Assembly: GCF_009914755.1 (NCBI RefSeq) | Contig: NC_060942.1 | Direction: 5' to 3' (one strand) | Length of the DNA stretch: 64,000 nt | Origin: the human T2T-CHM13v2.0 reference genome, Homo sapiens | In this document: one piece after another, positions 3,195 to 24,800 of the stretch | Layout of the letters: the number at the start of each line of letters is the position of its first letter | Position numbering within the stretch: position 1 is the first letter of the stretch | Made by a program: the position numbers and the translations under genes | Notes under the pieces: generated by a model | The model's input: the letters and a program-made list of their open reading frames with translations, nothing else | What the model was told of the DNA's origin: nothing | The model's database searches: none

Positions 3195-4187
3195 ACTTCT
3201 GGATGCTTTCGAGTTTTCCCTCTCCCATCTAACACCATGCCCTGAGCACATTTCCTGCAAACTGTATTTTTATTACTCTCAGCTCAAGGACCTCCCACCA
3301 TTTCCACTGCCTACCACACCCCGTGAAACACCCCCCTCTGCATAGTGGAAACCCCCCAGCACAGACACCACACCCCCACGCCTGGTCTCCCTCTCACTGT
3401 CCTCTGGCTCGTCTCACCCCAGCCCCATGCCTTCCTCATCCAATTCTCCCCACGTGGAGTTCCCTCCCTTCCTTTTTGTGTATTTATATCCATCTGCCTT
3501 CCTTGTCGTTTCATTGTTAGGTGCCTCGCAGATTTCACTGCTATAAACATAATTTTCATCTAAGCTCAGCGCTTAGGCTTCCTGAGGGCAGGGACCAGTC
3601 TCCTCTTCCTGACTCCTCAACAATGCCCAGCTCTGGTGGCCTGAGGCAGGTGAGTGGGGAGGGCAGGAGGGGAGCAAAAAGCAGGGTAGACAGAGAAGGA
3701 GTTGGGGCAGGACAGAGAGCTGGAGAGAGGAGGCGAAGGGGTGGGCAGGAGAGGGGCCTGGCTAGGTGACTGCCCTGCCCAGGTGTCACGCTCTGATTTA
3801 GCCTCGGGCTCAGGCCAGGCCACTCTCACCATGAGAGGAGAGGGGCTACTGGGGGAATGGGTGTGGCTGGGCTCTGCCTGCTGCCCCTCCTACCCCTGTC
3901 AAGGTGGCCCCTTTCCCTTCTCAGTAGGTTGGAATTTGTCTGGAAGAGGAAACCCATTTCTTGGACCGGGAGTGGGAGATGGGGAGCCAGGTTGTGTGGG
4001 TAGGGAAAGCCAAGAAGCAAAAGGAGTAGTGGGAGAGAGAAGGGTGAGATGAGGCTGGTGAGGGCCATGGAGCAGCTGGGGCGGGGGCAATGTGAAGGAG
4101 CAGGTTAAAAGCAGTCGGACACCGGTAGGTTGGTGCGAGCACCGCCCTGTCCTAGGTGAAGCTAATTGGTTTGTTATCTTTACCCAC

Positions 4188-4331
4188 CAAAGCATTTACT
4201 TTGGTTAGTCGCCCGATCCACAAACACTTTCGAGGAGATGACATTACCGAAAGGGAGGAACATCTGCATCAGCTCAGCGTCCCCAAACTCCTGGGGCAGA
4301 TGGTAGATGAACAGGTTACAGCCCTCGGGCC
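4188..4331 (-). CDS. CELF4: CELF4 exon 11 (144 nt long form; 84 nt short form ending at 4248), RRM3 N-terminal part, [28 protein letters not shown][[20 protein letters not shown]]G
   Basis: Acceptor tcaccgcag|GG; donors TTCG|gtaatg (4247) and TTTG|gtgggt (4187), 60 nt apart and in the same phase. Confidence 0.94.
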
Positions 4332-13119: not shown

Positions 13120-15270
13120 GAGCACCTGGGCCTGAGGGGTGCCCAGGGAAAAGCCTGGGGCAGAGGTCCCTAGAGACAGTGGGACAGTAGGTTCTATAGC
13201 CCCCAGGAGCAGGATGCGGCAGGGGAGTCAGACCCACGGGGGCTCTGCTCAGATGGGGGGAGCTGAAGATGAGCCACAATGCAGGCTCCTTCCTGCCTGG
13301 GGCTGTCCCAGTCCCACACCCTGTCCCTCTATTTCCCCCATGGTAGAGACTGGCGCTGAGGGCTCCTCAGTGTGATGTGCTTGGGAGGGTGTTCTCCTCT
13401 CTGCCTTCCCTCTGCCCCTATCCTCTGCCAGCCTCTAAGCTCTATAGAAGGAGAACCACGTCCGGATTGTGCTCTTGGTCTTTCCAGCTATTCATCCATG
13501 CAGTGGCTTTATGCAAATTAGAAAAGGGTGCCCCTTCCTTTGGGCATACAGTTTGGTGCCCTCATGCAAAATATAACCTGCACGATTTGCATGGCAGCTG
13601 CCAGCACAGTGCCAGGAACATCATAAGCATCTGGCAGAGTATGATGAAAAGAATGAATGAACAATCTTTAATGTTTGCAAGAGCCACCCCTTCAAGGGTG
13701 TTTATGTGACAGTAAAGGCCACACTGTGTGTATCCAGCAAGAACCCAAGAGGGGAGATCAGAAAAGCTACCTGGGGCAGGGAAACAGAAAAAAGCATTTA
13801 TGAGACCCTTCTCTACTTCTCTGCCTAACGACCTCATTAGTAACTGCCAAAGAGTGAACATTTTGAAGGATCTCGCTCATTACAGCGGGTCCAAACTCCG
13901 CATTTAAAGATGGTAAATTAATTTTTTTAATGTACTACTTTTTTCCTTTCCTTCCCTCCATCCCTCCCTCCCTCTTGCTCTGGCAAGGAATTGTTTATGA
14001 GATGTGGCAGATTGTTACAAATAGGGGAAGAAACATTTCCAAATTCCATGAGGGAAATAGCTCACAGATGCCAGAGGGGGTTGGGAAGGAGCAGGTTTAT
14101 CAGGATCCAGAGATCCAGATGGGCTTGTGGGCAGGAAGGGGTGGGAAATGAAGCCACCCAGATGTGCTGGGGATGCCATCTCCCAGCCCATGAGCCTTAG
14201 ACTGGTGGGATCTCTTCCACCCCCAGCTTGCACAGCCCCACCCTGCCACCCTACCAGCTTGGGGTCATCATCCTTAAACAACACTCCAGATCATTAGAGC
14301 CTCATCACTTCACTCTCTAGACTCCTCTGGCCTCTTCTTGGTGGACTGAGGGATATATTATGGGGCAAGCTCTGGAATGGGGAATGGGATCAAGGAAAAC
14401 TCCAAGTTCAAAGTCAGGAAATTCTCCTCTATTTCCCTCTAGTACAGTGACCTTGCACTCTGCTGCTAGTGGGACTTTTATATACTACAAATGCCTGGTC
14501 TGCACTCTAGACAGGGAAATGAGAATGTCTGGGCTTATGTGGTTGTATAAAGCCCCACAGTGGATTCTGATGGGCACCCAGAGTGGGGAACAGGACCCAG
14601 CCCCTGCTGCCAATTCACCTTGGGCTGGCCTGCCTGCCGTGTGTGCCAATCTCCTTACCACCTCCACTCTTGCCAGGCAGGTCCCTCCAAAGGAGGGTGT
14701 TCCCTGTTCATCTTCACCTCTCCAATTCCTGCCCATCTGTTAATGCTCGATGGTAGTTTCCTCCTTGGGAAGGCTTTTTGGGGCTTCTTTAGCCTACAGA
14801 ACTGTCCATTCATTGGGATCTTTAGCATTTCAAGTCTGAGAACACTCACTCATGATCAAACTTAATTCTGCCATATTGTCTCATCATTCTGCAGACTTAG
14901 ATTGTGTTCCCAATGGACTCTGACCTCCCAGGCGATAGGTCCATGTCCTGCTCTACTTCTTGGGCCCCCCTTTCACAGCACAAACTGAGTACTTACTGAT
15001 ACTTACGGGGACTCTAACCTCATCCTCTGCCTCCAGGAAGCGGGGCGGCACTCCACATCGGGAGCACATTTCCCTTGTAGTTTACTAGAGGGCTTTGGGC
15101 CCAGCTTCCCTGCCCTGATAGCAGCCCATTCTCCAGACCAGGGAGAAGAGCTGCTTCAGGCCAACTGGACACTCTCACCCTGTGAGGACGGCTAAGTTTG
15201 AGGAAAAAAGGTAATCAGGAGCAGGCCTCTTGGATCTTTCCGTGTGCCAGACTATTTGAAAAATAGTCTA

Positions 15271-15324
15271 GGAGCTGTCCAAGGTGCTGGGCTGTCTGTG
15301 GTGCTGACCTGTCCATGGTGCTGA
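15271..15324 (-). promoter_or_regulatory. Triple tandem RE1/NRSE (REST binding sites)
   Basis: Minus strand reads TCAGCACCATGGACAGG, TCAGCACCACAGACAGC, CCAGCACCTTGGACAGCTCC versus consensus TTCAGCACCNCGGACAGCGCC; 17-bp period. Confidence 0.88.
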
Positions 15325-15833
15325 TCACGCTTTGCGTGCACCATGATCGCGCTTTTGTGTGCACCAAGGGATGGACTGGTCTGTACTAGACAGACTGCCA
15401 ATCGTTATACCTCCCTCCACTCCTTCCCAAAGAGTCTTTTCCTACTTAACACTAACCCTGATTGTTCTTCTAGTTTCTATCCCCTTACTTCTTGTAGGTT
15501 AAATTCACACTCAATTATTTTGCACTTACTGGCCTCTCTACATGGTTGTACAACTGCACCCAGTCTCCTTTCTTCCCTAAGGGAGCACCTGGAATGGGGA
15601 TCTGTCTCCCAGATCAGAATGACATATCCCCAAGGGCAGGATTTTGGTCTCATTTTTTCCATCACGGGCTCCCTGAAGGAAGATGGGAGGCTGGCCCTCT
15701 CTGATCACACTTGGGGTTTCATCAAGGAATGGACAGAGGGCAGGAGCCACATCTTGTTATAACAGCAAGGGCAGGGACAGCATGGATAAAGAATGTGCTG
15801 CATACGGAAATAAGTGCTGACAGATGTGCTTAC

Positions 15834-15983
15834 CTGGGTAGGGGTGGATGCCATTGGCGAACACAGCTTCCGCAGCAGGTTGCCCATTGGCCTGTGGGGG
15901 GAGGCCGGTGAAGCCATTCACCCCAATGGGGGATGGGATGCTAGGCACGGCTGGTGCAGTGATGCCCGGAGGGGTGCTGCCAC
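15834..15983 (-). CDS. CELF4: CELF4 exon 8 (150 nt), [50 protein letters not shown]
   Basis: Acceptor gaaccag|GT, donor CCAG|gtaagc; lies within ORF 15757..16056. Confidence 0.95.
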
Positions 15984-19520: not shown

Positions 19521-19870
19521 CTGCGGCCGGGGCGGCGCGTGAGACCCACCTGCTCCAGAGCCTCCGCCCGCAGCTGTCGGTGCCTCTGGCCTGCGCCCAC
19601 CCCGCCCGCTCCTCGGGGCGCTTTGGAGGAGGCGGCATCGGCGCTCGCCCAGGGGAATGAGGTGTGAACCCCACCGCGGGCATTTTCCACCTGGGTAACC
19701 TCAGGCCAGTTCCTTAACATCCCTGGGCTTCCGCGTCCTTGTCTGAGGCCCGGAATAAGGGTCATGCTTTCCTGTCTCTTGGGGAGACTGGACAGCCGGC
19801 GGGGCGTGGCGGGTGCTGGGGTCTCGGCCCGCCGCTGCCCTCGCCCCCGCCCCAAGGGGCCAGCACTCAC

Positions 19871-19950
19871 CGGCATGGTCTGGCTGCCGTGTAGCGCGTT
19901 GATGGCGGCCTGCGCCTCGGCGTGGGAGGAGTACTTCACAAAGGCGCACC
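19871..19950 (-). CDS. CELF4: CELF4 exon 5 (80 nt), RRM2 RNP1, [27 protein letters not shown]
   Basis: Acceptor gtcctcgcag|GG, donor CCG|gtgagt; in frame with exons 4 and 6. Confidence 0.96.
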
Positions 19951-20180
19951 CTGCGAGGACGCGAGAGGCCGAGCTGGGACCCAGAAGCAGGGCCAGGGAG
20001 GGGCCGGGAGGAGAGGGCGCATCCCAGGTGAACGCAGACGGGTGAGGCAGAGATTGAGAAAGAGACACCAAGAAGCCCAGAGACAGACGGCGATGGCCCC
20101 GGAGACTCAGAGGAGCCCTCTGGTCTCCCTCCGCCTCGCCCCTCCCTCCGGGGCATCCCTCCCGGCCCCGCCCCGCGCAC

Positions 20181-20309
20181 CCTTGCTGTTGCCGTCGGGC
20201 CCGCGCAGGATGGTGCACTCCTCGATGTTCCCAAAGGCCTCGAAAAGGCGGCGCACGTCGTCCTCGGACTGTTGCTTGTTGAGCATGCCCACGAAGAGTT
20301 TTCTATCTT
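20181..20309 (-). CDS. CELF4: CELF4 exon 4 (129 nt), RRM2 N-terminal half, (Q)[43 protein letters not shown]
   Basis: Acceptor ttttgttctag|AAG, donor AAGG|gtgcgc; contains RNP2 LFVGML; phase 1/1; alternative NAGNAG start at 20306. Confidence 0.96.
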
Positions 20310-20739
20310 CTAGAACAAAATTAGGAGATGCTTACCCGGGCCAGGGACCGGGCTGCGCGGGAGCAGGGCAAGGCCGGAGGGGGAGAGCGGCAGGGAAAGG
20401 GAGGAGCCGGGGAGGCGGGGCGGGGGCTCGGAGCCGGCGGGGGAGAGGTGCGGGGGAGGGGGACGGGGGCGGGGCTTAGTCGGAGCGGGAGGGGCGAGGG
20501 AGAGAAGTAGGTGGGGTAGGAGCGCACAGTCGCGGGACAGGTGCGGAGAGAGCTGTGGCAGGCAGGAGCTGGATCGCAGCGACTCGGCCTCCTCCCGCCT
20601 GCAGGGCAGGCTGCACCCTGAGGAGCAGAGACCCTGGGCTGACCCCTCACTAGAGCACACGGGCAGCCTGCGTTCCCCTCCTCCTTCGTCTCACATGCTA
20701 TCCTCTACAGGCTCCAAAATGAATCACAACTGGCGGGTC

Positions 20740-21066
20740 TGACTTCGGGCCTTTGCAGATGCTGTTCCCCTGCCTGGAGCGCACTTATCACAAGGTCCAG
20801 TCCTCTTCTTCTAGGTCTCAGTTTGAGTATTGCCTCCTCACCCATGCCCCTTCTTATCCCTCCCTTACTCTGTCTCAGGCCCCCATCCCTGTGGCCGGAA
20901 TGTCAAAGGACAATGACTACTTTGTGGGTTTCCGTATAGCTCTCCTTTCCCACCCATTCCCTGGGATGCTCACTGGGGAAAGAGACCAGGCCTCTCTGCT
21001 GAAGCAGCAGTGCCTGGAGCACAGGAGGCCCTCCATTTAGTGATGAGGTGAATAAAGAATGAATGA
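20740..21066 (+). mobile_element. L2 3' fragment
   Basis: gcctttgcagatgctgttccc...cagtgcctgg...gaatgaatga tail. Confidence 0.7.
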
Positions 21067-21379
21067 CTGCCTGTCCTGTGCCATCCCAGGGCACACCTCC
21101 TTGGTATGTCACATATTTTTTCTTCCATCTGGATGCGCCCTCCTCGGTCTGGCTCTTCCTATTTCTTCACGCTGCAAAATTCGACCCTGGACACTTTGGG
21201 GGCGTCTGTTCCTGAAGATGCCTCAGCAGCCCCCACACACCTGGGATGAGTATCAGGTGCTTTGTTGATCCCATGCTGTGTGCTCAGGGAGACAAAGCAT
21301 GCACGCATGGGGCTGTATCCACCTGCAGCAGCTGGTGAATGACTGCAGAAGGCAGCCCCAGCCCACATACTGCTACTTC

Positions 21380-21859
21380 AGTGTGACTGCCACTCCTCTC
21401 ACTGAGAGTCCGGGGGCGTATTCCTTCCCCTTGACTGCTCTAACAAATAAAGAATGGCAGAAGTGATGCCAGGTGACTTCTGAGGTTGGGTCATAAAAGA
21501 GATCAGCTTCCACTTGCCTCTGTTTTGTGGGGTGGGGGGTTGTTAGCTCTGTGGAAGCCAGCCACCATGCTGTGAACCCCCAATTAGCCCATGCAGAAGA
21601 GTCCCCATGGAAAGGAACTGAGGCCCCAGCTGACAGCCAACATCGACCACCAGACACGTGAATGAATGAGTCCTCGGATAATTCCAGCTCCCAGCCTTTG
21701 AATTTTCCAGCTGAGGCCCAGACATCCTGGAGCAGAGACAGGCCTTCCATGCTGTGCCCTGTGAATTCCTGACCCATGGAATCCATGAGCAAAATAAATG
21801 GTTGTTTTACACCACTCAGTTTCGGGCTAAATTGGTATGCAGCCATAGGAACTGGAACA
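21380..21859 (+). mobile_element. MLT1-family (ERVL-MaLR) solo LTR
   Basis: gaatggcagaagtgatg, gaagccagccaccatg, gaactgaggcc, AATAAA at about 21793, 3' end ...ggaaca. 5' boundary uncertain. Confidence 0.8.
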
Positions 21860-24800
21860 GAGTCCCAGGGGTGGCTGCACTCAGCAGGCACTCGCTAGAT
21901 GTTTGTGGATGATTACATGATTGACACACAGCCAAAGCTGCAGAAATGCAGACCCCAAAACTGCAAATGGCCATGTGTTCATGGTTTCCTCTGAGCACAT
22001 GGGCACTCAGGGACCCTGTGTCCTTCTGTATTCAAGGTGGTTGGTACCTTCTTTCCCAGAGAACCCCCACCTTGCCCAAATTGTCAGGAGAGTTCACTTA
22101 GAGCTGAGGGTCTGTCCCAGGTTCTGAAGCAAAGCAGAGGAGGCTTTCAGGCCCCTGCCCTCCACAAGCCACCTGCAGAGTCCTCCTGCCCTCTGCCCTG
22201 CTGGTACTCCTCAGTCCAGACGCACTCAGCACTGGGCCAGTTCTCAATGATGATGTGGTACCAGGTCCCAGCTCCTCGCATAACCTGTAGGGCACAGTTA
22301 CTGGTCCCTGTTACCAGCTGTTCGTCAAAAAACACCAGCTGGCCCTCCAACAGGGTGGGCCTCAGCTAAAGCTCTGGACCCCAGAGCCCAGGCCCCACTA
22401 CCTGCCTCAAGCTGCTCTTCTGGCTCCTTTGGCTTGGCAAGACTTTGGGGCACACCCCCACCCCATCTCCAGGGTTCTGCGTGCAGCCCTCCCCCACTTA
22501 CTCCAGGCTCTGGGGCACAAGGAGAAGGAAGAGAGAGAGGGAGGGTGGAAGAGAAAAGCTGAAGTGGGATGGGAGGAGATAGAGTTCAGCGCAGAAAGGG
22601 AGTGGGGGAGAGAAAATGGCAGGAAACACAGACAAGAGAATTAGAGGCAAAGAGCTGGGAGAAGAGGGCTGGGGGGAAAGATGGCAGAGACAGAGGAAAG
22701 ACTAGGGAGCCATTATGTTTGACTCCTGGAAGCAGCAACAGCAATTTACTGGAAGTGAAATGGGAGCTTTTCCTTCTTTTGTGGAGTAATTAAAACTCTT
22801 CTTTCCAGGCACAGCCCCCAGTGTTCTCCCTACCTCCCCCTCAACCTTTAGTGCCTTTTAAAGGCTCAATCGAATTGGGTTTCCAGAAAGACTTAGAAAT
22901 GGAACCCCGCCCCTGCTAATCCCTGGCCCTCTTGCTAAAAATTCCACTTCCTCACTTGGACAGAAAAAGGAAAGGAAGGGAACGCACCTCCTCTGCCCAA
23001 GCTTGATTTACATGCGGAGACTGCAGCTCCTCGCCTTCGCCTCTCCTGACGTCTGAATGCATTCCTTTATTATTGCTATGACAGCTTTCTGATTGCATTA
23101 AAATTCATCCACATGTGCCTTTCTATCCAGCCACTTCCTTTTTTGCCGGTTTTGGGTTTTTTTTGTTTTTTCCTAATTCCTCGTTCCCCTCCCCTGAAAT
23201 TTTCCTTTACTGTGCAGTTCTCAGTTAAGCGCCTCCTTCTAGAGGCCTTTCTAAACATATAAGCTGCCAGGCTCCCCCTCTTCCTCCCCATCTGGATTTC
23301 CCCAGGGAAACTATAGCCACCCTTACCTTTCTGGAGGGCTGCAAGATACCAAAGACACCCAGCTTCAGACTCACTTCCTCCAGGTAGTCATGGATTGACC
23401 ACAACCAACTCAAATGTCTGCTTCTAGGATCCTCAAATGTGTTCAGTTTGCACCGTCCTCCAGTTGGGTATTGTGGCTTGTGCGAGTGATTCTAAGGCTT
23501 GTCTCTCAGACCAGGGGCTGGAGGGACTTTGAGTTTGCGAGTGGACTTCCTTGTGGGCCAGGCCCACTGACTCCCCCTCCCGCTCCCCCGCTCCACAACT
23601 GAGTTTTGGGATCTATGAAATGGGTATGATTAGATGCTCTTGTCATGGTGGTGGCTAGGGTCCCAGCGCCTGCCAAGAGGTAATTACCATGGCGATGGCC
23701 CCTACTTGGGTTTCTCCGTGCAGGAGGAAGAGGAAATGCAGTGCTGTTTTCCCTTCATTCGCCCTGCCTTGGTTTGGCCTGGAAGGTCACCCCTGCTGTG
23801 AGAGGGCAGAGGTCAAAGAGGGTGAGAGGAGAAGTCAGAGGAGCCACATCTTATGATGGGGAACACACTTGAAGCAACAGGTTGGACTAGATCCTGAGGC
23901 TGTGGCTGGCCAGCTGAGATGGACAACATCTCCCTGTCTCCCACCCACTCTGCCCACCTCCTTTCTGTCCGCTTTCCTGAGGCACTGTCTCAAGCTGCAT
24001 CACATAACCAACGGTACCATTTGGCTGGTGTCTTGGGTCTGATGCCAATTTCGCAAGAGTCTTGGAGAATGACTCTGTTTCCCCAGCCCGTGCCCACCCT
24101 CCTCCTCCATCCACACAGCCCCTGACTCCTGGTACAGGCAGAGAAGGCCCTGGCCACTGCCCAGCTGCCTAAGCTGGGACCCCTGGTAATGGAGAGGCTC
24201 TGGTGGTCCCCATGTTCTGGTGAGCCCTCAGCCCTGAGCCTGTTGCTTCCCATAGTCGGGGTATTGGGGAGCTGCCCCTCTGAAGACACATTCAGGCAGG
24301 TGCTGCTGGGCTGGGCCAAGGTGTTGAGGCAAGGAGTGGCCTCAGAGTTAGTGAGGGGATGGGCTGAAGAGTGAGTGAGAGGTTGCTGAGACCCCCTGGG
24401 GGCCCAGAGATGTGGTGAGCAACTGGAGGCTGGCATTAGGAGCCCAGAATTCTCTTGACAGAGCCCAGCTCAGGTCAGGGGCTCAGCCCTGGGAGTTGGA
24501 AAGTGAGCACAACAAAATCCGCTGACCTGAGCTGAGGGGACTGAGGCCTCACGGGTTCCTCCTGGTCAAGGGGCAGAGCAAGGGGAGCAAGCATGTTCTA
24601 CAGTCTCTCAACAGCTGTTCACTGAGTACCTTCTCTGTGCCGGACACTGTTCCAAGCATTGCTTCTACAGTGGTAAACAAGAGAGACGAAGCTGCTCGTT
24701 GGAACTGGCATCTGGGTGGAGAGACAGGCCATCCACAATACACAAGTCCCCAAACAAGACAAAGGCCAGCAGGGCTGGCACACTGTGGCCCCAAGAACTG

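What the first reader, a model, noticed from the sequence alone, without database searches (positions are those of the whole stretch)
15271..15324. Three head-to-tail REST/RE1 sites at an exact 17-bp period in intron 8
Seen: units at 15274-15290, 15291-15307 and 15308-15324 read on the minus strand CCAGCACCTTGGACAGC, TCAGCACCACAGACAGC and TCAGCACCATGGACAGG. They differ mainly in the RE1 spacer and at the edges while both half-sites are kept. Known: RE1 is about 21 bp and REST silences neuronal genes in non-neuronal cells. Inference: an old tandem triplication kept by selection as a high-avidity silencer deep in the gene body. Because the period is shorter than the motif, adjacent footprints overlap, which could make occupancy competitive or cooperative. 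REST control of CELF-family genes may already be reported; the array architecture is the point of interest.
Basis: partly seen in the sequence, partly recalled or inferred. Interest (0 to 1): 0.8.

Follow-up and report, generated by a model that had tools for sequence, protein, structure and literature searches.

The report
Triple abutting REST sites in CELF4
Three back-to-back binding sites for the neuronal-gene repressor REST sit in a CELF4 intron and coincide with the gene's strongest published REST peak; this is a real but largely expected example of a known class, tandem REST sites.

Summary
Window 15274-15324 carries three head-to-tail RE1 (REST-site) cores on the minus strand at an exact 17-bp period. 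Two cores are perfect and one has a single G>A change. Chance expects 0.21 such cores in the window.

By anchoring on RE1 motifs, I mapped the array onto a published human ES-cell REST ChIP-seq peak, hg19 chr18:34849997-34850370. Its score of 11390 is the highest of 6 CELF4 peaks. It is labelled conserved, meaning REST is also bound at the syntenic place in mouse ES cells.

Among the three units, 1 of 13 core positions varies against 4 of 4 non-core positions (p=0.002). That argues for selection on every unit.

Tandem head-to-tail RE1s, in groups of up to five, were described in 2006, and REST repression of CELF4 is in print. The kind is therefore known.

What is particular here is the zero-spacer 17-bp period, the tightest RE1 pair found in this genome.

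Silencing by this element, how many REST molecules bind at once, and the copy number in other species all remain untested. The array probably lies in intron 9, not 8.

The parts
15308..15324 (-). RE1 unit A (5'-most on the motif strand): TCAGCACCATGGACAGG. Perfect core with left half CAGCACC, 2-bp spacer AT and right half GGACAG.
   Evidence: (0 mismatches at 15309-15323)
15291..15307 (-). RE1 unit B (middle): TCAGCACCACAGACAGC. One core change, the first G of the right half to A. This is what a CpG transition from ...ACGGACAG would give (inference).
   Evidence: 1 mismatch at 15292-15306. The variant core CAGCACCNNAGACAG has 186 genome hits against 13 for the reversed control.
15274..15290 (-). 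RE1 unit C (3'-most): CCAGCACCTTGGACAGC. Perfect core; the 5' flank is C instead of T.
   Evidence: (0 mismatches at 15275-15289)
15272..15324 (-). The whole 17-bp-period array, 3.1 copies with no indels. It sits in a single-copy CELF4 intron, in the sense orientation, 510 nt downstream of the exon at 15834-15983. It coincides with the hESC REST ChIP-seq peak hg19 chr18:34849997-34850370.
   Evidence: (single copy in the genome)
15322..15366 (.). Flanking 23-bp x 2 direct repeat, abutting unit A, with 4 CpGs. Possibly part of the same REST-bound, CpG-retaining element; membership is uncertain.
   Evidence: period 23, 2.0 copies, score 69; CpG o/e 1.19 over 15321-15366 against 0.14 for the intron

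Best explanation
The array is a genuine, evolutionarily maintained REST docking site made of three abutting 17-bp RE1 cores. It most likely arose by local tandem duplication of one ancestral RE1 core. REST binds it in REST-expressing cells (shown by published ChIP-seq in human ES cells and at the syntenic place in mouse ES cells). There it is inferred to recruit REST's co-repressors and to help keep CELF4 silent outside neurons, alongside two other conserved RE1s in the gene. Because the full RE1 is 21 bp and the period is 17 bp, neighbouring units share 4 bp. The likely states are therefore one REST on any single unit, or two REST molecules on the outer units. The outer units are 34 bp apart start to start, which leaves 13 bp between their 21-bp motifs. 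Three registers and possible double occupancy would raise capture rate and time-averaged occupancy, giving a site that stays filled at low REST levels. Shown: motif, array, REST occupancy, binding at the syntenic place in mouse, and position-specific constraint. Inferred: duplication origin, stoichiometry, and silencing of CELF4 by this element.
For: Motif and array. The core is a real functional word in this genome, with 829 hits against 15 for the reversed control.

REST occupancy: Table S2 of PMC4499139 lists the peak hg19 chr18:34849997-34850370 with score 11390, labelled 'conserved'. This is the highest of 6 CELF4 peaks; the others score 3430, 2299, 61, 38 and 37. By my hand count it ranks 4th of the 146 conserved peaks printed in that part of the table.

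Mapping to the array: the T2T-minus-hg19 offsets of RE1 anchors are 2613084 (KIAA1328 peak), 2613115 (array), 2613671, 2613675 and 2613639. No other RE1-like word with up to 3 mismatches lies between window 15324 and 16355.

Mouse: there is a 'conserved' peak at mm10 chr18:25500516-25500750.

Selection: 1 of 13 core positions varies against 4 of 4 non-core positions, Fisher p=0.0021. Pairwise unit identities are 14/17, 14/17 and 13/17.

CpG retention beside the array: o/e 1.19 against 0.14 for the intron.

Gene-level repression: REST depletion raised CELF4 expression in glioma cells (PMC8803922). A REST-linked change at mouse Celf4 is listed in PMC4371837.

Against: No experiment addresses this element itself. 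The published CELF4 ChIP-qPCR primer maps to window 310546, about 295 kb away.

PMC2573930 notes that most REST-bound genes were not derepressed by dominant-negative REST, and that the most responsive genes have sites close to the TSS. This site is 296 kb from the main TSS.

PMC1557810 argues from variable spacing that REST-REST interaction is not important at tandem sites.

The mouse peak scores 633. That is lower than another mouse Celf4 peak at 3324, so the mouse site may be weaker or hold fewer units.

The hg19 mapping rests on motif anchors and needs about 560 bp of extra T2T sequence between the array and the next anchor. It is not a liftOver.

The selection test rests on 17 columns and three units.
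Confidence: 0.62

Rival explanations
1. REST binds here, but only as a single effective site. The extra units are tolerated by-products of replication slippage, and the array adds nothing beyond one good RE1.
For: Adjacent 21-bp motifs overlap by 4 bp, so neighbours may exclude each other (sequence). PMC1557810 sees variable spacing among tandem RE1s and attributes the head-to-tail layout to the duplication process rather than to function.
Against: All three cores are kept while every non-core position has diverged (p=0.0021). The peak score is 3.3 and 5.0 times that of the two other conserved CELF4 sites, one of which has a perfect single canonical core. The outer units leave 13 bp between their motifs, so two molecules are sterically plausible.
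Confidence: 0.17
2. REST occupies the array, but the array does not control steady-state CELF4 transcription from the main promoter. It instead marks local chromatin, acts on an internal or alternative promoter or a neighbouring transcript, or is functionally redundant with the promoter-proximal RE1.
For: The array is 296 kb from the TSS. Most REST-bound genes are not derepressed on REST inhibition, and responsive genes tend to have TSS-proximal sites (PMC2573930). CELF4 has a bound RE1 about 0.9 kb from its 5' end that could suffice. The hub table lists 126 transcripts and an lncRNA at 19526-21466.
Against: The array is the strongest REST peak in the gene and is shared with mouse. The constraint on the cores implies that some selected function depends on REST binding.
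Confidence: 0.18
3. The array is a chance or neutral minisatellite that merely resembles RE1, and the ChIP peak belongs to something else nearby.
For: The hg19-to-T2T correspondence was inferred from motif anchors and is not a formal liftOver. B- and C-based offsets alone would place the peak about 560 bp away.
Against: 0 of 100 shuffles give 4 near-core hits. The anchor on the KIAA1328 side places the peak centre within about 31 bp of the array. No other RE1-like word lies within about 1 kb on the far side. The core is enriched 829 to 15 in the genome.
Confidence: 0.03

Closest known systems
Tandem head-to-tail RE1 clusters (PMC1557810, Nucleic Acids Res 2006; examples named there: SNAP25, L1CAM, KCNN4)
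   Same: Two or more RE1s within 100 bp, all head to tail, in groups of up to five. A tandem-duplication origin is proposed, and function is suggested as recruitment at low REST levels or of several complexes. Tandem canonical RE1s near Snap25 and Celsr3 are among the most REST-responsive genes (PMC2573930).
   Different: Here the units abut with no spacer, at period 17 = the core length. Of the 4 loci in this genome with two perfect cores 0-30 bp apart, the other three have periods of 28, 28 and 36 bp. In the degenerate-pair search the two CELF4 pairs have the smallest gap (2 nt) of 36 hits. The next smallest (3 nt) are four (CAGAGC)n-type simple repeats and one GC-rich CAGCGCC/GGCCAG pair. 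Whether this locus is in that paper's supplementary list could not be checked.
Canonical single RE1/NRSE, for example the mid-gene CELF4 RE1 at T2T chr18:37677386-37677400
   Same: Same core word, also intronic, also a REST peak labelled conserved between human and mouse.
   Different: It is a single site scoring 2299, against 11390 for the array.
Promoter-proximal CELF4 RE1 used for ChIP-qPCR in PMC8803922 (Nat Commun 2022)
   Same: A REST-bound element of the same gene. REST knock-down raised CELF4.
   Different: It lies at window 310546, about 295 kb from the array. Its two half-sites (TTCAGCACC ... GGACAGCACC) are separated by 8 bp instead of 2, which makes it a non-canonical expanded-spacer RE1 of the kind described in PMC2573930.
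Three-unit RE1-like array at T2T chr11:66418142-66418232
   Same: Three head-to-tail units fitting the degenerate core.
   Different: The period is 38 bp, so footprints do not overlap. The left halves are CAGAACC. Its gene context and REST occupancy were not examined.

Membership tests
RE1/NRSE (REST binding site) | Bipartite motif: left half (CAGCACC core), 2-bp spacer, right half (GGACAG core), within a 21-bp site | tested here: met
   Units A and C match the 13 specified core positions exactly, and unit B has 1 mismatch. The 21-bp length, the half-site positions and the 2-bp spacer are taken from PMC1557810 and PMC2573930. The core word itself comes from the finding and is validated by 829 genome hits against 15 control hits. 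The full 21-mer consensus is recalled, not taken from a call.
RE1/NRSE (REST binding site) | REST occupancy in vivo | tested here: met
   Published hESC ChIP-seq peak with score 11390, and a peak at the syntenic place in mouse ESC. The peak was mapped to the array by motif anchors. I did not see raw reads or a summit.
RE1/NRSE (REST binding site) | REST-dependent repression of the linked gene through this element | not testable with these tools
   Only gene-level evidence exists: siREST raises CELF4. The ChIP site tested there is a different RE1.
Tandem RE1 cluster (as defined in PMC1557810) | Two or more RE1s within 100 bp of each other | tested here: met
   Three cores lie within 49 bp.
Tandem RE1 cluster (as defined in PMC1557810) | Head-to-tail orientation | tested here: met
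   All three units are on the minus strand in the same orientation.
Tandem RE1 cluster (as defined in PMC1557810) | Each unit scores above that paper's PSSM cutoff (0.91), and the locus is listed in its supplement | not testable with these tools
   The PSSM is not available, and the supplementary files cannot be read here.
Transposable-element-borne RE1 (LINE2/ERV/Alu class of PMC1557810) | RE1 plus flanks repeated elsewhere in the genome | tested here: not met
   The 301 bp around the array (15150-15450) match only themselves in the genome. The stretch is not among the masked repeats in the hub table.

The most novel reading that the evidence does not exclude
The zero-spacer 17-bp array, the only good one of its kind found in this human genome, is a register-switching REST platform. 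Three overlapping binding registers plus an outer-outer double-occupancy state would give unusually high and long-lived occupancy that persists as REST levels fall. That would make this intronic site the last CELF4 RE1 to be vacated during neuronal differentiation and hence the timer of CELF4 activation.
Probability: 0.15. Interest if true: 0.5.

Novelty: new member of a known kind. Interest (0 to 1): 0.3.

Why it matters
CELF4 is a neuronal RNA-binding protein. Its silencing by REST has been tied to splicing changes in glioma (PMC8803922). Knowing that the dominant REST peak of the gene is an intronic triple RE1, and not the promoter site usually assayed, points experiments at the right element. 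The abutting 17-bp layout also offers a natural substrate for a question left open since 2006: whether tandem RE1s work through multiple occupancy, faster capture, or not at all. The gain is incremental, because both the class of element and the REST-CELF4 link are already published.

Tried and rejected
Cross-species copy number could not be examined. No vertebrate genome other than the window's own is held, so there is no alignment of mouse or other mammals. I rely on the 'conserved' label of PMC4499139.

The supplement of PMC1557810, which lists all human tandem RE1s, is not readable here.

The supplement of PMC4371837 had no Celf4 or Brunol4 rows. The supplements of PMC4055426 had no CELF4 or BRUNOL4 rows. 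A search there for coordinates beginning 348499-348503 gave only unrelated numbers, and one file was cut when stored. File 1 of the PMC4499139 supplement was not searched.

The BRUNOL4+NRSF search found one paper, which was irrelevant.

The literature searches for CELF4+REST+RE1, CELF4+NRSF, 'tandem RE1', 'multiple RE1', and RE1+REST+head-to-tail turned up no description of this array, judged from titles, abstract starts and the passages I read in five of the listed papers. A search for a 24-nt string of the array found 0 papers.

Three-unit arrays were read off the overlapping pair hits instead.

A transposable-element origin was rejected because the locus is single copy.

The alternative that the ChIP peak lies about 560 bp away, on the exon at 15834-15983, was rejected.

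Non-canonical pairing of a left half with the next unit's right half needs a 19-bp spacer. That is outside the reported spacer changes, which are shortening to 0-1 bp or expansion by 7-11 bp, so I did not pursue it.

Full report
**1. The observation**

- Tandem Repeats Finder calls 15272-15324 with period 17, 3.1 copies, no indels and score 71.
- The repeat finder gives three copies at spacings 17 and 17.
- The 13-letter core CAGCACCNNGGACAG with up to one mismatch occurs 4 times in the 64-kb window. Three of these form the array and one is a weaker site at 22112-22126.
- Dinucleotide shuffles expect 0.21 matches, and 0 of 100 shuffles reach 4.

**2. Is the word meaningful, and is the layout rare?**

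The window's assembly, chr18 of a 3.1-Gb genome, could be searched.
- The perfect core has 829 hits (422+407), against 15 (4+11) for the same word read backwards. It is a selected word in this genome.
- The middle unit's variant, CAGCACCNNAGACAG, has 186 hits against 13. It is still enriched, though less so.
- Two perfect cores head to tail with 0-30 bp between them occur at only 4 loci, against 0 for the control. The other three, on chr8, chr10 and chr20, have periods of 28, 28 and 36 bp.
- With a degenerate core (recalled consensus) there are 36 pair hits against 3 for the control. Many of these are simple repeats or minisatellites.
- In that search the two CELF4 pairs have the smallest gap, 2 nt. 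The next smallest, 3 nt, are four (CAGAGC)n-type repeats and one GC-rich pair.
- Demanding the 17-bp period and allowing 3 mismatches gives 5 hits. Two are this array with 1 mismatch each, and the other three carry 3 mismatches.
- The 301 bp around the array are single copy, so this is not a transposon-borne RE1.

**3. Does REST bind here?**

Table S2 of PMC4499139 (Nucleic Acids Res 2015) lists REST ChIP-seq peaks for human and mouse ES cells. I saw rows of supplementary file 3 and passages of the methods and results. It lists six human peaks assigned to CELF4:
- hg19 chr18:34849997-34850370, score 11390, conserved
- 35144770-35145069, score 3430, conserved
- 35063575-35063860, score 2299, conserved
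- three weak peaks scoring 61, 38 and 37

No liftOver is available, so I mapped by RE1 anchors. The offsets (T2T minus hg19) are as follows:

| Anchor | Offset |
|---|---|
| Only RE1-like word in 10 kb around the neighbouring KIAA1328 peak | 2613084 |
| The array, against the 11390 peak | 2613115 |
| A candidate word (3 mismatches, one of 10 such words in the 10 kb scanned) near the weak peak at 34921524 | 2613671 |
| The perfect RE1 under the 2299 peak | 2613675 |
| The RE1 under the 3430 peak | 2613639 |

The array agrees with the anchor on its 3' side within 31 bp. About 560 bp of extra T2T sequence lies somewhere between the array and the next anchor, 72 kb away. No other RE1-like word with up to 3 mismatches lies between window 15324 and 16355. 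The strongest CELF4 REST peak is therefore the array.

By my hand count, only 3 of the 146 conserved-peak rows printed around it score higher: 17894, 16444 and 11508.

'Conserved' in that paper means that a peak was also called at the syntenic position in mouse ES cells. The mouse table has three conserved Celf4 peaks in the same order along the gene. The 3' one is at mm10 chr18:25500516-25500750 with score 633.

**4. Constraint inside the array**

In the 17-bp register the three units differ at positions 1, 9, 10, 11 and 17. All 4 non-core positions vary (the edge positions and the 2-bp spacer), against 1 of 13 core positions (Fisher p=0.0021).

Pairwise, the non-core positions differ at 2, 3 and 3 of 4. 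This is close to saturation, so the duplication is old, unless the units arose independently (inference from very few sites).

The one core change, G>A after a C, is what a CpG transition from the common ...ACGGACAG form would give (inference).

The 46 bp abutting unit A hold 4 CpGs, with o/e 1.19 against 0.14 for the whole intron. This fits a germline-unmethylated, factor-bound patch. That interpretation rests on recalled knowledge that REST sites are hypomethylated.

**5. Mechanism**

The RE1 is 21 bp long, with a left half at positions 1-9 and a right half at positions 12-21. With a 17-bp period, each motif shares its last 4 bp with the first 4 bp of the next. Position 20 of one unit falls on the C that starts the next core.

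Neighbouring registers probably exclude each other. The outer units are 34 bp apart, which leaves 13 bp between their motifs, so two molecules could bind together (inference from geometry).

The array would then offer three ways to capture one REST, plus a doubly occupied state. That is consistent with a ChIP score 3.3 and 5.0 times those of the two other conserved sites in the same gene. It also agrees with the report that tandem RE1s of SNAP25 and L1CAM recruit REST better than single sites.

REST depletion raises CELF4 in glioma cells (PMC8803922, passages). However, that paper's CELF4 ChIP primer maps to window 310546, at the 5' end of the gene. It lies on a split RE1 whose halves are 8 bp apart. 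The contribution of the intronic array to silencing is therefore untested. Distance from the TSS argues for caution.

**6. Comparison with what is known**

PMC1557810 (passages) reported 27 RE1 pairs within 100 bp, in groups of up to five and all head to tail. It proposed an origin by tandem duplication and function through low-concentration recruitment or several complexes. It also noted variable spacing as an argument against REST-REST contacts.

The CELF4 array is a member of this class. It may well be in that paper's supplementary list, which I could not read.

My searches found no text describing this array, judged from listings and the passages I read. The particular point is the zero-spacer period, the tightest found here.

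**7. Other points**

The gene is on the minus strand, so the RE1s are in the sense orientation. They lie 510 nt downstream of the exon at 15834-15983, about 296 kb from the annotated 5' end and 27 kb from the 3' end (hub table).

Translation of the sequence 3' of the window finds one more coding exon, ending in a stop, at about -1000 to -1180. That makes this intron 9 rather than 8 of the 13-exon transcript (inferred).

**8. Verdict**

The element is real, is bound by REST and is probably selected. It is of a known kind with one unusual geometric feature. Its function as a CELF4 silencer and its stoichiometry remain to be shown. Interest 0.3.

Noticed in passing
window 15249-15269: A perfect palindrome, AGACTATTT-GAA-AAATAGTCT (9-nt arms, 3-nt loop), lies 4 bp from the 3' end of the array on the motif strand. 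By my own rough arithmetic a few such palindromes are expected per 64 kb, so it may be coincidence.
   Followed up: no
window 15322-15366: A 23-bp direct repeat in two copies (TRF score 69) starts inside unit A and carries 4 CpGs. CpG o/e is 1.19 against 0.14 for the intron. No motif was recognised. It may belong to the same protected element.
   Followed up: partly
window 15371-15386: A 16-nt stretch is 81% complementary to 15301-15316. It is a degenerate inverted copy of the junction between two RE1 units, 54 nt from the array. It does not make a credible RE1.
   Followed up: partly
L009 5548-5577 (T2T chr18:37758548-37758577; window about 310548-310577): In the promoter-proximal CELF4 RE1 used for published ChIP-qPCR, the half-sites TTCAGCACC and GGACAGCACC are separated by 8 bp instead of 2. 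It is an expanded-spacer, non-canonical RE1.
   Followed up: partly
between T2T chr18:37463299 and 37535303 (window 15299-87303): RE1 anchors imply that T2T carries about 560 bp more than hg19 somewhere in this 72-kb interval of CELF4 introns, an insertion or repeat-length difference. It was not located.
   Followed up: no
window 4188-4331: The exon listed as 4248-4331 for NM_020180.4 reads on in frame to about 4188, the boundary listed for other transcripts. The extra 60 nt encode the stretch of RRM3 leading up to its RNP-1 motif. The two splice forms therefore differ by 20 residues inside the third RNA-binding domain.
   Followed up: partly
T2T chr5:986529-987599 and chr6:167532486-167532668: These are minisatellites, with periods of 30 and 42 bp, whose units fit the degenerate RE1 core. 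Whether REST binds them was not examined.
   Followed up: no
T2T chr10:105714781-105714823 (L003): A tandem pair of perfect RE1 cores has an extra orphan left half (TCAGCACC) between them. This suggests partial-unit duplication as a way such arrays grow.
   Followed up: no
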